Part shown: positions 1-3,805 of the stretch, piece by piece | How the letters are laid out: each line of letters opens with the position of its first letter | Position numbering within the stretch: the first letter of the stretch is position 1 | Assembly (NCBI GenBank): GCA_947627915.1 | Contig: CANQXT010000003.1 | Location: forward strand, 1 to 49,904 | Direction of reading: 5' to 3' | Length of the DNA: 49,904 nt | Source of the DNA: an uncultured Bacilli bacterium | Lineage (GTDB): Bacteria; Bacillota_I; Bacilli_A; RF39; UBA660 | Notes under the pieces: generated by a model | Told to the model about the DNA's origin: nothing | The model's database searches: none | The model's input: the letters and a program-made list of their open reading frames with translations, nothing else | Made by a program: the position numbers and the translations under genes

Positions 1-962
1 AACAAACTAGAAATATAATATCTTTTTTCAATAGTCTTTTTACCATTGTGTTCAATAGTTTTTCTTACTAAGCCAAAAGAGTGTAATGAAGGCCAAGAAG
101 AATAATCGAAATACCAATTAATATCTTCTGTTTGGAAATATTCGTAAGTTATGACATTAGAATTTGCTTTTTCAGTTGAAATAGTGTACGCAGATTTTAA
201 GCACCCTGCTTTAATCGCGTCTAATTTATCGTCATCAAAATATAGTTCTAAATCACTTAAAAATGATGGATGATTAGCTTTTAATGCAACAACATAATCT
301 GCTTTAGCATCAATAACAGCTTTGATATTTTCTTTTTGTGTATTCAATGCATCCCATGTAACAATAGCCCCTTTAGCATTCACTCTATTTAAAATAGTAG
401 GAATGGTTGTTATTTCATTAGTTTTATCATCAATCATTTCACTGGCAAGACACATTTGATAATTATTAGAATAAATGTTTAAAATATTTAAAGATTTAAT
501 GGCTTCCCGAAGTTCATTTTCATTCCTTTTACTGCCATTATCTGTTTTACCATCAATAGATAATATATCTCTTTCTGATTTAAATAATTTAGTAACATTT
601 TGAAAAAATAGAACACAAATATCTTCAAATTCTTGAGGGCGAATAATAGCAAATACTCTTTCATAAGTTTTAGCAGATGCAACTCCACCCGTCATTTTTA
701 AAAATTGTTTAAAAAAATCATATTTAATTTCAACGAAATCGTGAATTTCTTCCCAAGTATTTTGATCAGCTAAAATAGCAATAAAAGCAGTAATCACAAT
801 ATCCCAAATCTTATATACACGTTTTCCTTTTTGTCTAGAATCATACAAGGATTTTAAACTCTCTTTAAATTCAATAATAGCCTTTTTATCAAAATCATCA
901 ATATTGATTTCGAATTTTTTAAGTCGTTCTCTAACCATTTTTCTAGTAATTCCTGTAGACAT
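1..962 (-). CDS. ISAs1-family DDE transposase (runs off the left edge of the window)
   Basis: Absent from the ORF track because its stop lies outside the window. Manual translation from ATG at 962 (RBS AGGTG at 975-971) gives MSTGITRKM...DSRQKGKRVYKIWDIV...ILSIDGKT...KTNEITTIP...IVTWDALNTQKE...DYVVALKANHP...RYYISSL, containing the ISAs1 motifs IDGKT, KxNEI, DAxxxQ, LKxN and RYYISS. Confidence 0.93.
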   Translation of the reverse strand, partial: MSTGITRKMVRERLKKFEINIDDFDKKAIIEFKESLKSLYDSRQKGKRVYKIWDIVITAFIAILADQNTWEEIHDFVEIKYDFFKQFLKMTGGVASAKTYERVFAIIRPQEFEDICVLFFQNVTKLFKSERDILSIDGKTDNGSKRNENELREAIKSLNILNIYSNNYQMCLASEMIDDKTNEITTIPTILNRVNAKGAIVTWDALNTQKENIKAVIDAKADYVVALKANHPSFLSDLELYFDDDKLDAIKAGCLKSAYTISTEKANSNVITYEYFQTEDINWYFDYSSWPSLHSFGLVRKTIEHNGKKTIEKRYYISSL

Positions 963-1192: not shown

Positions 1193-3763
1193 ATGAAGAA
1201 GAGATTTTTAATAATAACCTTAATTATAATTGGAATAATATCTTTAACATTATCATTAACCTATAAGACTTATTATAACAAAATTGTTGGAGAAAAAAGT
1301 CCTTCTATAATTGGAGATAAGTTTGCAATTTATATAGAAGAAGATAATGGAGAATTTACGCCAACAAATAGAGATATGTTTCCAACACTAGGAGAAGGTT
1401 ATATATTAGATCATAGTGATTGTATAGATAGACATAGAAAAACTTTAGAAAGTCCAGTAATAGATATTGATCCCTATAATATAGCACACGTTTATACAAC
1501 AAATGCTTTATATTGTAATTTATATTTTAAAAAATATAGTTGGGAAGGAACAGAAGTAAAATTTAAATTTGAGAATAGTGGTCAAACAGTTCATGAAAGA
1601 AATCAAAAGTATCGAATAGAATGGACAATAGAAGGAGCAACAGAATACTGTATAACAGATGGAAGTAGTTGTGACTGGAAGACGATTCCCTATGAGATGG
1701 GAAAGAAGTTTTTAGAAGATAATATAGAAATACCAGGAGATAGTGGTCAAAAGACATATTATGTTAAATTAAAAACATTATTTACTGAACAAGAATCAAA
1801 TAGAGATGGATTATATTTACAATTAGATATAACACCACCAACATGTTCATTAAAAGTAGAGAATAATAAAATAGTATTTGCTAGAATACATGATGATCGA
1901 AGTGCAGAAGCGAATATAGTAAGAGGAATAAGTAGAACAAATACAACAACATATGGAAATATAAATTCCATAAATGTAAGTGGAACCGGTGAATATTATG
2001 GATATGTAAAAGATGAAGCCGGAAATGAAGGAAGATGTACTATAGATGTCCAAAATGATTATGGAGTTGCTTGTAGTGTAACTCAAACAAATTCATATCC
2101 AATATATTGTAATGTAACAAAAGAAAATCCACACCCAGTATATTGTAGTGTAACCAAAGAAAATTCTGAGCCAGTATACTGTAATGTAACAAGTGCAAAT
2201 CCTCATCCAGTATTTTGTGCTGTTACTGGAAATAAACCAATTTCAAAATATTGTGAGGTAAAAAGTACAAATCCTCATACAGTATATTGTAATGTAACTC
2301 AAACCAATTCTGAGTCAGTAAATTGTAAAGTAAATAAAACACTTATGACACCAATAAAATGTAGTGTCACAGATACAAAATCAGAGACAAAAAATTGTAC
2401 AGTTACACAAAAACTTGCCGATAAAAATACTTATTGTTATGTTACCAATACATATGATAGAACCCAATATTGTACTCAAACAAAATCTACACCTATCTCC
2501 GGATATACTTATATTGGTATACGTTGTAATTGTGGTTATTATCCATATCAAGATTCAATGCAAGTAGCCTTTAATGGAGTATCAACTTGTTCTCCAAATA
2601 ATTGGCAAAGTCCTTTTAATCCGTTTAATTATTATCATTCAGAGTATGAAATTAATTGTAGTACAGTATGTAGTTTAGCAAGAGATCCATCTCGTTATAG
2701 ATTTCCTTATACTAGTGGCTATATGGATGGTAATTATGAATTCTTTCTAAATAGCGTTTCATATCCACCAGCTGTAGTAGCATTTTGCTATTCAGTGCCA
2801 CAAGGAGTCGTATATACTTGTTCAAATGGTAATATATGTAATTACGCTGGATGTTGTAGTAATCAAGTATGTGGTAATGTATCATATGATTATGTTTGCT
2901 CAAATGGAATAACATATTCAAATGATAGTAGTGCTTGTACAAATTCTATTTGTAGTTCTAAAGAACAATATAAATGTTCTGATGGTAATATATATGAAAC
3001 GAGAAATGAGTGTACAAGTAAGAGTTGTGGAACTAAAGATAGTTATGTTTGCTCAGATGGAAGTACCTATGATACGAAGAGTACTTGTGAAAATAAACAA
3101 TGTGGTACAAATTATAGTTATTTATGTTCTGATGGTGAAACATATAGTACATCAAGTGATTGTACCAATAAACAATGTGATACAAAGAATACATATTCTT
3201 GTTCAAATGGAAAACAATATAGTACATCAGATGAGTGTACAAGTAGGCAATGTGGTACAGATTATACATATTCATGTTCCGATGGAAAAGAGTATAATAC
3301 ATCAGATGAGTGTACAAGTAAGACATGTAATGTGGAATATCAATATTCATGCTCAAATGGAAAAGAATATCCTTCATTAACTACATGTACAAATCAACAA
3401 TGTGATACCAGATATACATATTCTTGCTCAGATGGAGAAGAGTATAATTCTCAAAGTAGTTGTACAAATTCGGTATGTGATACTAAGTACACATATTCAT
3501 GTTCAAATGGTGAAGAATATAACTCATCAAGTACTTGTACAAGTACCCAATGCGATACCAGATACACATATTCATGCTCAAATGGAAGTGAATATGATTC
3601 ACAAAGTACATGTACCAATACCCAATGTTCTACAGGATATACCTATACATGTTCTGATGGTTCAACATATGATAACCAAAATAGTTGTATATCTAAAGAA
3701 TGTGGTAGAGCTTGTCCAACTGGTTATACTAAAGATGGTGGTTATTGTTATAAAGAAGTATAG
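1193..3763 (+). CDS. Membrane-anchored or secreted cysteine-rich repeat surface protein
   Basis: 856 aa. N-terminal basic plus hydrophobic segment, a small FAIY...C...YCxLYF domain, Ig-like DxTPPTC modules, two Cys repeat arrays, and a terminal CPTGYTKDGGYCYK motif. Confidence 0.85.
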   Translation: MKKRFLIITLIIIGIISLTLSLTYKTYYNKIVGEKSPSIIGDKFAIYIEEDNGEFTPTNRDMFPTLGEGYILDHSDCIDRHRKTLESPVIDIDPYNIAHVYTTNALYCNLYFKKYSWEGTEVKFKFENSGQTVHERNQKYRIEWTIEGATEYCITDGSSCDWKTIPYEMGKKFLEDNIEIPGDSGQKTYYVKLKTLFTEQESNRDGLYLQLDITPPTCSLKVENNKIVFARIHDDRSAEANIVRGISRTNTTTYGNINSINVSGTGEYYGYVKDEAGNEGRCTIDVQNDYGVACSVTQTNSYPIYCNVTKENPHPVYCSVTKENSEPVYCNVTSANPHPVFCAVTGNKPISKYCEVKSTNPHTVYCNVTQTNSESVNCKVNKTLMTPIKCSVTDTKSETKNCTVTQKLADKNTYCYVTNTYDRTQYCTQTKSTPISGYTYIGIRCNCGYYPYQDSMQVAFNGVSTCSPNNWQSPFNPFNYYHSEYEINCSTVCSLARDPSRYRFPYTSGYMDGNYEFFLNSVSYPPAVVAFCYSVPQGVVYTCSNGNICNYAGCCSNQVCGNVSYDYVCSNGITYSNDSSACTNSICSSKEQYKCSDGNIYETRNECTSKSCGTKDSYVCSDGSTYDTKSTCENKQCGTNYSYLCSDGETYSTSSDCTNKQCDTKNTYSCSNGKQYSTSDECTSRQCGTDYTYSCSDGKEYNTSDECTSKTCNVEYQYSCSNGKEYPSLTTCTNQQCDTRYTYSCSDGEEYNSQSSCTNSVCDTKYTYSCSNGEEYNSSSTCTSTQCDTRYTYSCSNGSEYDSQSTCTNTQCSTGYTYTCSDGSTYDNQNSCISKECGRACPTGYTKDGGYCYKEV
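2066..2503 (+). repeat. 12 tandem ~12-aa (36-bp) coding repeats, one Cys each (VYCNVTKENPHP-like)
   Basis: Units counted in the translation: VACS, IYCN, VYCS, VYCN, VFCA, KYCE, VYCN, VNCK, IKCS, KNCT, TYCY, QYCT. Confidence 0.9.
2807..3712 (+). repeat. 12 tandem ~25-aa (75-bp) coding repeats with three conserved Cys each (YTYSCSNGEEYNSSSTCTSTQCDTR-like)
   Basis: Twelve YxCS[ND]G units counted from VVYTCSNG to YTYTCSDG...CGRA. Confidence 0.92.
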
Positions 3764-3805
3764 TAAATATGGACAATTAAGATAATTTTTGATAAAATTT
3801 AACTG

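What the first reader, a model, noticed from the sequence alone, without database searches (positions are those of the whole stretch)
2066..3712. Nested 12:12 cysteine repeats with mirror-order covariation: proposed hairpin stalk carrying a tip domain
Seen: exactly 12 short one-Cys repeats, a unique ~100-aa aromatic/Cys-rich core (about 2504-2806), then exactly 12 long repeats with three conserved Cys. Pairing them in reverse order (N1 with C12 and so on) makes the linkers co-vary. Both NPHP linkers face CDTR. All three xSEx linkers (NSEP, NSES, KSET) face CDTK, CDTK and CGTK. NPHT faces CGTD, and the odd NKPIS faces the odd CNVE. Inference: each module is built from one outgoing and one returning unit (1+3 = 4 Cys, two disulfides or a metal site, with E-K pairs). 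The chain would form an antiparallel rod that displays the central domain at its tip. Growth would need coordinated duplication at two separate sites in the gene, which is unusual for tandem-repeat proteins.
Basis: partly seen in the sequence, partly recalled or inferred. Interest (0 to 1): 0.82.

Follow-up and report, generated by a model that had tools for sequence, protein, structure and literature searches.

The report
Two matched cysteine-repeat arms, probable hairpin stalk
A gut bacterium's surface protein carries two different cysteine repeats in equal numbers on either side of a variable middle piece, and relatives keep the two numbers equal, which suggests the chain folds back on itself into a cross-linked stalk that shows the variable piece at its tip.

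Summary
The 856-aa gene (1193..3763 +) has 12 one-Cys 12-aa units, a 98-aa 6-Cys core with 21% aromatic residues, then 12 three-Cys 25-aa units plus a 2-Cys cap.

The family was found in only two genomes. Its nine members give short:long counts of 12:12, 13:13, 13:13, 3:3 and five 1:1, and all nine tails have even Cys totals. In one 13:13 paralog, one short unit has lost its Cys and one long unit its third Cys, each third from the core. The core is the most divergent part between paralogs. Unit similarity correlates only in mirror order, though much of that signal is a gradient.

Structure could not be tested. Two AlphaFold2 runs gave pLDDT 42 and the complex job gave no verdict.

My best reading, at about 0.55, is an antiparallel stalk cross-linked layer by layer. 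It resembles the streptococcal AgI/II stalk in design but is unrelated to it. No Pfam, PDB or wider homologues were found.

The parts
1193..3763 (+). Whole gene, 856 aa: N-terminal hydrophobic anchor, N-terminal ectodomain, Cys-rich tail
   Evidence: ORF list and translation. No Pfam or NCBIfam family at E<=1.
1193..1267 (+). N-terminal hydrophobic segment (about aa 1-25), a signal anchor or signal peptide. It has no lipobox and no prepilin motif.
   Evidence: Read directly from the translation. The localisation is inferred.
1268..2038 (+). Conserved ectodomain (aa 26-282, 6 Cys). It ends in a PTC...YGYVKDEAGNEGRC module shared with unrelated-tailed proteins P0003 and P0004. DNA from nt 1271 is 95-100% identical to the two paralogs.
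   Evidence: 31-39% identity over 10% of the query; identity profile.
2039..2524 (+). Short arm: an 11-aa lead-in plus 12 one-Cys units (Cys 294, 306, 318, 330, 342, 354, 366, 378, 390, 402, 415, 427), consensus C-x-V-T-x-x-N-P-H-P-V-Y
   Evidence: TRF finds periods 36 and 72 at 2071-2334. AlphaFold2 draws 7-residue strands with 5-residue turns at low confidence.
2525..2818 (+). Core (aa 445-542): unique, 6 Cys, 21% aromatic. It is the proposed tip and the most divergent part between paralogs.
   Evidence: The only relative at E<=0.001 in 1.84 billion representatives covering it is the 99% twin P0002.
2819..3712 (+). Long arm: 12 units. The first has 5 Cys (543, 549, 554, 555, 560). Then come 10 regular three-Cys units starting at Cys 569...795, and a terminal unit (820, 832, 837). 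Third Cys positions are 560, 587, 612, 637, 662, 687, 712, 737, 762, 787, 812, 837.
   Evidence: TRF finds periods 75 and 150 at 3091-3689.
3713..3760 (+). C-terminal 2-Cys cap (Cys 841, 852), motif C-P-T-G-Y-T-K-D-G-x-Y-C-Y-K. The motif is conserved in every family member and repeated as a 2-Cys unit in another protein of the genome (contig C10).

Best explanation
The tail (aa 283-856) of this membrane-anchored surface protein folds back on itself. The 12 short units run outward as single beta-strands, the variable 6-Cys core forms the far tip, and the 12 long units run back as beta-hairpins. Each layer therefore holds one short and one long unit.

In each layer the short unit's only Cys bonds to the third Cys of the long unit in mirror order. 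The predicted pairs are 294-837, 306-812, 318-787, 330-762, 342-737, 354-712, 366-687, 378-662, 390-637, 402-612, 415-587 and 427-560. The first two Cys of each long unit staple their own hairpin, as the two cap Cys do.

The result would be a rigid, disulfide-laddered stalk that holds a fast-evolving tip away from the cell. Its likely role is an adhesin or a variable surface antigen. The C-terminus returns to the base beside the conserved N-terminal ectodomain.

Shown: the equal unit counts, the even Cys totals, the matched Cys loss, the mirror-order similarity and the variable centre. Inferred: the physical contact, the disulfide chemistry, the rod shape and the function.
For: 1. Counts move in lock-step across all nine family members found: 12:12 (window), 13:13 (contig C12), 13:13 (contig C42), 3:3 (G007 C12), and 1:1 in five small G007 proteins.
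2. All nine tails have even Cys totals: 58, 62, 60, 22, 14, 16, 12, 12, 12. Each long unit has an odd number of Cys. The long arm and core alone are therefore odd whenever the unit count is odd, and the short arm makes up the balance.
3. Matched loss in paralog C42. Of 38 short and 38 long units in the three large paralogs, one short unit has GGT where the Cys codon TGT stands, and one long unit lacks its third Cys. Both are in the same protein and both are the third unit from the core. The first two Cys of that long unit are kept.
4. Mirror-order similarity peaks at the same register in all three paralogs, r=0.66, 0.73 and 0.69, each above the 99th percentile of its null. Apart from isolated offsets 4-5 units away built on only 8 pairs, parallel registers are about 0 or negative. 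Per-protein mutual information at mirror shift 0 gives z=2.4, 4.1 and 2.3, while parallel registers give z from -1.8 to 1.1.
5. Between paralogs, DNA identity is V-shaped around the core: 95-100%, falling to about 30%, rising to 91-94%. Per-layer identity of the two arms falls in step, Spearman 0.67 and 0.92, although one arm spans 432 nt and the other 900 nt.
6. Where the window has Glu at -4 and Lys at +3 in layer 4, the two paralogs have His with Arg, or His with Ser.
7. Exported-like proteins of this genome show the even-Cys bias taken as a sign of disulfide formation: 63 even against 27 odd, versus 342 against 372 for proteins without a hydrophobic segment (the method is from the abstract of PMC2823432).
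8. The window's tail is reproduced exactly in an independent protein record (P0002, 100% over 567 aa). It is also reproduced piecewise at about 99% in contigs from two studies.
Against: No structural evidence exists. Two AlphaFold2 models have pLDDT 42.6 and 41.5 and pTM 0.29 and 0.28, and no contact map is available.

The family was found in only two genomes of one genus. The three large paralogs share ancestry, so there are only about three independent count observations.

Counting needs judgement in places. The end units are atypical. The window's core has its C-x-C at the start, not the end. G007 C8 fits 1:1 only if its core is read as 8 Cys. The Cys-less short unit of C42 is a degenerate 13-aa piece.

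The mirror correlation is partly a gradient effect. Shift -1 scores almost as high as shift 0. Within the consensus-like block of paralog C12 there is no signal (r=0.07, 44% of 720 permutations reach it). I also chose those blocks after seeing the data.

The E/K and H/R rule has exceptions and gives p=0.048 after removing redundancy.

No VKOR, DsbB or Thioredoxin_4 (DsbA-like) gene was found in the 92%-complete genome, so the route to disulfides is unknown.

A 12-aa and a 25-aa unit must give the same rise per layer, and I cannot show that they do.
Confidence: 0.55

Rival explanations
1. The two arrays fold independently. The short units form their own beta-meander with Cys bonded between neighbouring strands. 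The long units form their own rod with third Cys bonded between neighbouring units. The only coupling is that the total Cys number must be even. The equal counts and the mirror pattern then come from shared ancestry, from gene conversion working inward from both gene ends, and from chance.
For: Both arms have a two-unit period (72 and 150 nt), which would fit neighbour pairing. The three large paralogs are not independent, and their N-terminal parts are 95-100% identical in DNA, which shows recent conversion or duplication. The mutual-information peak is broad and paralog C12 shows no within-block signal. AlphaFold2 draws the short arm as a regular strand-turn array (low confidence).
Against: Parity alone does not predict 3:3, 13:13 or five 1:1 members. 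With odd counts, neighbour pairing leaves one Cys over in each arm, and these must still bond across the arms. The C42 losses hit one Cys in each arm, at the same layer from the core. Under neighbour pairing a loss would be compensated within the same arm. Identity between paralogs decays per layer, not per nucleotide.
Confidence: 0.25
2. The arms pair in the same mirror order, but the four Cys of a layer (1+3) bind a metal ion such as zinc or iron instead of forming two disulfides. This would suit an anaerobe that has no known disulfide machinery.
For: No VKOR, DsbB or Thioredoxin_4 was found in the genome. The habitat is the animal gut, by the run records. Each layer holds four Cys.
Against: In C42 the layer that lost the short Cys and the third Cys keeps the other two Cys. 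That fits two separate pairs better than one four-ligand site. Two-Cys units of the same hairpin type stand alone in the cap and in the contig C10 protein. The first long unit carries one extra pair. Exported-like proteins are even-biased. The spacing C-x12-C-x4-C is not a usual zinc knuckle; this last point is recalled and was not tested.
Confidence: 0.08
3. The complementarity is real but acts between molecules. The short arm of one chain zips onto the long arm of another, giving disulfide-linked dimers or fibres on the cell surface.
For: Equal counts, matched Cys loss and mirror order are all satisfied equally well in trans.
Against: The arms are joined by cores of only 39-51 aa in four members, which strongly favours closure within one chain. 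Three paralogs with different inner layers in one cell would mis-pair in trans. There is no direct evidence either way.
Confidence: 0.07

Closest known systems
Streptococcal antigen I/II family adhesins (SpaP, SspB, AspA): the stalk formed by the alanine-rich A repeats and the proline-rich P repeats, with the V region as head
   Same: Two different repeat arrays flank a variable middle domain. The N-terminal and C-terminal arrays associate to form a stalk that projects the middle domain away from the cell. The V regions of different members are unrelated in sequence (<10% identity). Source: passages of PMC3178794, which cite Larson et al. 2010 and Brady et al. 2010. Here too the middle piece is the most divergent part.
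   Different: There is no sequence relation: no Pfam hit at all and no PDB hit. The AgI/II stalk is an alpha-helix wound with a polyproline II helix and has no Cys. Here both arms are predicted beta and would be held by about one inter-arm Cys pair per layer. This protein is anchored at its N-terminus rather than by a C-terminal wall anchor, since it ends ...YCYKEV. There are 12-13 layers of 37 aa instead of a few long repeats; the AgI/II repeat number is recalled, not checked.
Rods of stacked small disulfide-rich modules (EGF-like, laminin-type EGF, TNF-receptor Cys-rich domains); recalled, not tested beyond Pfam
   Same: Modules of about 35-40 aa with 2-3 disulfides stack into stiff extracellular rods. 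A layer here would be 37 aa with 2 disulfides.
   Different: In those families each module is one continuous stretch of chain. Here each module would be assembled from two stretches hundreds of residues apart. No Pfam family of this kind matches, even at E<=1.
12-residue Cys-containing beta-helix repeats of the beetle antifreeze protein (recalled only)
   Same: A 12-aa period with Thr-rich strands and regularly spaced Cys.
   Different: That repeat has two Cys per 12 aa forming a bond inside the coil (recalled). The short units here have one Cys each, so they cannot be self-sufficient.
Proteins P0003 and P0004 (metagenomic; P0004 carries the prepilin-type N-terminal domain PF07963)
   Same: They share the PTC...YGYVKD.AGNE..C module that precedes the tail (31-39% identity over 10% of the query). 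P0004 also ends in a Cys-rich tail with the same 2-Cys cap-like motif.
   Different: Neither has the short one-Cys units or the three-Cys long units. P0004's tail is built from 2-Cys hairpin units only.

Membership tests
Antigen I/II adhesins | Alanine-rich and proline-rich repeat regions plus a V-region domain recognisable by family models | tested here: not met
   Pfam scan of the whole protein found 0 families at E<=1. The arms are Cys/Thr/Asn/Tyr-rich.
Antigen I/II adhesins | [quoted passage not shown] | tested here: not met
   The protein ends in the 2-Cys cap ...YCYKEV with no hydrophobic tail. The only hydrophobic segment is N-terminal.
Antigen I/II adhesins (works-like, not membership) | Two repeat arrays flanking a variable domain that associate into a stalk | tested here: inconclusive
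   Sequence tests favour association. The structure tools gave no usable model.
Any curated Cys-rich repeat or domain family (Pfam-A, NCBIfam) | A match above, or even near, the family threshold | tested here: not met
   0 families at E<=1 in both libraries. The G007 members had none that was relevant.
Type IV pilin-like proteins (as in P0004) | N-terminal prepilin methylation motif (PF07963) | tested here: not met
   No Pfam hit. The N-terminus reads MKKRFLIITLIII... and lacks the G-F-T-L-x-E type motif (the motif is recalled).
New family defined here (nested-repeat Cys tail) | The number of one-Cys short units equals the number of long units, with a 6-Cys (once 8-Cys) core between them, a 2-Cys cap at the end, and an even Cys total | tested here: met
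   Met in 9 of 9 members found. Judgement was needed for G007 C8 (8-Cys core) and C42 (one matched Cys-less pair).
Solved structures | Sequence relative in the PDB | tested here: not met
   0 chains at E<=1.

The most novel reading that the evidence does not exclude
This would be a new class of repeat protein. Each structural module is built from two distant pieces of one chain, a 12-aa strand going out and a 25-aa hairpin coming back, joined by a Cys pair. The protein can then lengthen only by adding one unit to each of two separate arrays. Nature has done this from 1 to 3 to 12-13 layers, and in one case has deleted both partners of one cross-link. The protein occurs in an anaerobe that has a Cys-rich, even-biased surface proteome but none of the three disulfide-forming families searched for. 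That would imply an unrecognised oxidative folding route.
Probability: 0.45. Interest if true: 0.85.

Novelty: new variant of a known kind. Interest (0 to 1): 0.72.

Why it matters
Tandem-repeat proteins are thought to grow by local duplication of self-contained units. If this reading is right, there is a natural series (1, 3, 12, 13 layers) in which two different arrays at separate sites in a gene must expand together. It even includes a case of compensated loss of a cross-link. That makes the co-evolution of distant repeats and the rules of disulfide-laddered beta stalks directly testable with one small construct, the 184-aa 3:3 tail.

It would also define a new family of variable surface proteins. 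The family lives in a small-genome gut bacterium whose surface proteins are unusually rich in paired Cys, yet no known disulfide machinery was found in the genome.

Tried and rejected
Structure prediction:
- AlphaFold2 on aa 290-856 as a single sequence gave pLDDT 42.6 and pTM 0.29.
- AlphaFold2 on the 184-aa 3:3 tail with a 6-row alignment gave pLDDT 41.5 and pTM 0.28.
- Both are too poor to use. I ran no fold search on them for that reason, and the tool gives no contact map.
- Complex prediction with the long arm (A2) and short arm (A1) as two chains returned 'no answer', score 0.00. It counts neither for nor against binding.

Wider homologue searches (the yield was P0002, a 99% copy of the window protein, and the G007 members):
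- Word-indexed search with the whole protein gave 3 hits among 3370 candidates, of which only P0002 covers the tail.
- Full HMMER search over 1.84 billion representatives with the tail gave 4 hits at E<=0.001. One is P0002 and three are low-complexity look-alikes.
- A profile of the small tails against longer proteins gave 3 hits, all G007's own proteins.
- Pattern scans of genome contigs (A2, A1) and metagenome contigs (A2, A3) found 0 confirmed relatives.
- In the genus, 2 of 42 genomes match. Among relatives, 2 of 61 match. In the class-level draw with the A3 profile, 1 of 399 scored genomes matches, and that is the window's own genome.
- The ESM Atlas gave no usable hit. The PDB sequence search gave 0.

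Other attempts:
- A literature search for Cys-rich repeat surface proteins of Mollicutes returned nothing relevant among the 15 listed titles. I made no search that could show the family is unpublished beyond that.
- Sequencing runs: no RNA holder is listed. Logan contigs of four runs are too short (the longest piece on the gene is 1167 nt) to count units in other samples, and the joints seen look like the paralogs.
- A DNA-level palindrome as the cause of the mirror order is rejected: the only two inverted pairs found both lie inside the long arm.
- A parallel (N1 with C1) register is rejected and by the C42 loss positions.
- The short ORFs inside the repeats on other frames or the other strand (2922..3380 +, 3033..3377 -, 3402..3785 +) are shadows of the repeat, not genes.
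Full report
WHAT IS THERE. The finding lies in one gene, window 1193..3763 on the + strand, 856 aa. The protein starts with a hydrophobic N-terminal segment. A conserved ectodomain of about 255 aa with 6 Cys follows. A 574-aa tail with 58 Cys completes it.

The tail has four parts:
- 12 units of 12 aa with one Cys each (Cys 294 to 427; one unit has 13 aa and the last three are degenerate).
- A unique 98-aa core with 6 Cys and 21% aromatic residues.
- 12 long units: a first one with 5 Cys, 10 regular ones with spacing C-x12-C-x4-C-x7, and a last one.
- A 2-Cys cap fused to the last long unit.

Tandem Repeats Finder sees periods of 36/72 nt and 75/150 nt. Neither Pfam nor NCBIfam matches, even at E<=1, and no PDB chain matches. 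The one qualification is that 'exactly 12' long units includes the two atypical end units. Alignment A3 justifies this for the first one, because the 5-Cys unit aligns with a regular unit and has two additional Cys.

THE LINKER PAIRS. I laid the arms against each other so that the Cys of short unit i faces the third Cys of long unit n+1-i. This is one coherent register.

IS IT MORE THAN CHANCE? I compared the unit-by-unit similarity matrices of the two arms.
- At protein level the correlation peaks at the mirror register in the window (r=0.66; 99th percentile of random pairings 0.52). It peaks at the equivalent register in both paralogs (0.73 and 0.69). Parallel registers give values around zero or negative, apart from isolated offsets 4-5 units away built on only 8 pairs.
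- At DNA level the window gives r=0.42, right at the 99th percentile.
- Mutual information between residues around the short Cys and around the third Cys is highest at mirror shift 0 in each protein taken alone (z=2.4, 4.1, 2.3). It is absent in parallel registers (z -1.8 to 1.1).

Results that weaken this:
- Shift -1 scores nearly as high (z=2.0, 3.5, 2.3). Much of the signal is therefore a gradient, since both arms are consensus-like far from the core and degenerate near it.
- Inside the consensus-like blocks, which I chose after looking, the window (0.2% of 5040 permutations) and C42 (1.7% of 720) keep a signal, but C12 does not (44% of 720).
- The pooled mutual-information test (z=7.8) is inflated by layers that the paralogs share by descent. 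I do not lean on it.
- His/Glu at -4 against Arg/Lys at +3 gives 7/0/1/5 (p=0.005). After removing shared layers it gives 3/0/1/5 (p=0.048). Further Glu layers face Thr.

The family is very rare.
- The full search of 1.84 billion representatives with the tail found only a 99% twin (P0002, tail 100% identical) and three low-complexity look-alikes.
- Word-indexed and pattern searches added nothing.
- The window's own genome (1.29 Mb, 90 contigs, 92% complete) holds two paralogs, on contigs C12 (822 aa) and C42 (834 aa).
- One other genome of the same genus, G007, holds six members. These two are the only matching genomes of 42 in the genus. In the class-level draw only the window's own genome matched, of 399 scored.

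Four members share a recognisable core, with six Cys ending in C-x-C. This lets the arms be delimited objectively. The counts of short to long units are:
- window: 12:12
- contig C12: 13:13
- G007 C12 (P0008): 3:3
- G007 C16 and the three C81 proteins: 1:1
- G007 C8: 1:1, if its core is read as 8 Cys by homology with the C81 proteins
- contig C42: 12 Cys-bearing short units against 13 long units

All nine tails have even Cys totals: 58, 62, 60, 22, 14, 16, 12, 12, 12.

THE C42 CASE. This is the most telling observation. One long unit of C42, the third from the core, lacks its third Cys but keeps its first two. In the short arm, the third position from the core is a 13-aa piece that begins GGT AAA GTT ATT where the preceding unit begins TGT AAA GTA ACA. 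It looks like a short unit whose Cys codon has mutated. C42 is therefore 13:13 with both partners of one predicted cross-link gone.

Among 38 short and 38 long units in the three paralogs, these are the only losses. They sit in the same protein and in the same layer. Taken at face value, the chance of the same protein and the same layer is about 1/3 x 1/13. The reading of the 13-aa piece as a degenerate unit is likely but not certain.

THE VARIABLE CENTRE. DNA identity between the paralogs is 95-100% over nt 1271-2080. It falls through the short arm to about 30% at the core and rises again through the long arm to 91-94% at the 3' end. The cores are 98, 39 and 44 aa long. Per-layer identity of the two arms falls in step (Spearman 0.67 and 0.92), although one arm spans 432 nt and the other 900 nt. 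That fits a gradient set by distance from a tip better than one set by nucleotide distance from the conserved flanks. A monotonic gradient would give a high rank correlation in any case.

CHEMISTRY. The first two Cys of a long unit resemble the 2-Cys cap. They also resemble the free-standing 2-Cys units of another protein in this genome, on contig C10. I therefore read them as an internal hairpin staple, which leaves the third Cys as the odd one.

The genome has no detectable VKOR, DsbB or Thioredoxin_4 (92% complete, three families only). Yet its exported-like proteins, picked by my crude single-N-terminal-segment rule, are strongly even-biased in Cys. The split is 63 even to 27 odd, and 24 to 4 for those with at least 4 Cys. 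Proteins without such a segment split 342 to 372. The abstract of PMC2823432 uses the same pattern as an indicator of a working disulfide system, and reports that aerobic Firmicutes instead exclude Cys. I therefore favour disulfides over metal sites, but I have not shown it.

STRUCTURE. Not resolved. Both AlphaFold2 jobs were of low confidence. The complex job gave no verdict and is not evidence either way.

ASSEMBLY CHECK. P0002 reproduces the tail exactly. In the run that best holds the stretch, one contig covers 2126-3292 without a difference, from short unit 3 through the core to long unit 7. Contigs from a second study cover core and arms with 3-4 differences each. The paralogs are identical only upstream of the arms, so mis-joining there would not change the unit counts.

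SURROUNDINGS. The neighbours are a DDE transposase on the opposite strand upstream (3..962), a DUF308 membrane protein, enolase, a DUF2207-type membrane protein and a zinc-ribbon/WG-repeat protein downstream. The three paralogs sit in unrelated neighbourhoods. I see no partner gene.

INTERPRETATION. The most economical account of the evidence is that the two arms lie antiparallel and are cross-linked layer by layer, with the core at the far end. The evidence is the equal counts over a 1-to-13 range, the even totals, the matched loss, the mirror-only similarity, the symmetric decay of conservation and the hypervariable centre. I put this at 0.55 for the disulfide, within-chain version. A metal-site version gets 0.08 and a between-chain version 0.07. 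Independent arrays coupled only by Cys parity get 0.25.

The nearest known design is the antigen I/II stalk of streptococci. There an N-terminal and a C-terminal repeat region associate to project a variable head (passages of PMC3178794). This protein is not a member of that family and would use a different fold and chemistry. The mechanism by which two arrays expand together is not shown. The simplest idea, which is inference, is stepwise duplication in one arm followed by selection for a matching change in the other, with C42 showing the alternative repair by losing both Cys.

Noticed in passing
whole genome G000: Exported-like proteins show a strong even-Cys bias: 63 even to 27 odd, and 24 to 4 for those with at least 4 Cys. 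Proteins without a hydrophobic segment do not (342 to 372). No VKOR, DsbB or Thioredoxin_4 gene was found. An unrecognised disulfide-forming route may exist.
   Followed up: partly
G000 contigs C11, C26, C10, C21: Four more very Cys-rich large proteins. C11 is 1495 aa with 86 Cys in D-x-N-x-D-G-x-C-D-L-N-C-D-T-N type repeats. C10 is 841 aa built from 2-Cys Y-x-C-S-N-G-Y-T-K...C units that match the cap motif of the window protein. C26 is about 1500 aa and C21 about 630 aa, each with other Cys repeats.
   Followed up: no
window 1271-2080 against G000 C12 and C42: The N-terminal ectodomain coding region is 95-100% identical between the three paralogs (100% over about 600 nt for window against C12). 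The first 78 nt and the tails differ. This points to recent gene conversion or duplication confined to that part.
   Followed up: partly
L010 (G007 C12), L019 (G007 C8), L003 1-1250 (G000 C42 upstream gene): In G007 the Cys tail is fused behind a large extra module that ends ...RPVF(Y/F)L....IKSG.G...NPYIL. In G000 a similar module is a separate gene just upstream of the C42 paralog. The tails look like shuffled modules. Pfam finds nothing in them.
   Followed up: no
window 3..962 (-): A DDE transposase gene (PF13808 and PF01609) lies 230 nt upstream of the gene on the opposite strand and runs off the window end.
   Followed up: no
protein P0006: An unrelated 254-aa metagenomic protein carries about nine 11/12-aa repeats with the motif A-W-C-T-V-T after a globular N-terminal part. 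It is a weak look-alike of the short units (E=3e-4) and its meaning is unknown.
   Followed up: no
window 2922..3380 (+), 3033..3377 (-), 3402..3785 (+): Open frames of 114-152 aa lie inside the long-repeat region on other frames or the other strand. They are by-products of the repeat's periodic composition, not genes.
   Followed up: no
G000 C83, C4, C35, C23: Four further ORFs share only the first 110 or so residues (anchor plus first small domain, 32-33% identity) with the window protein. This looks like a common N-terminal module for several surface proteins.
   Followed up: no
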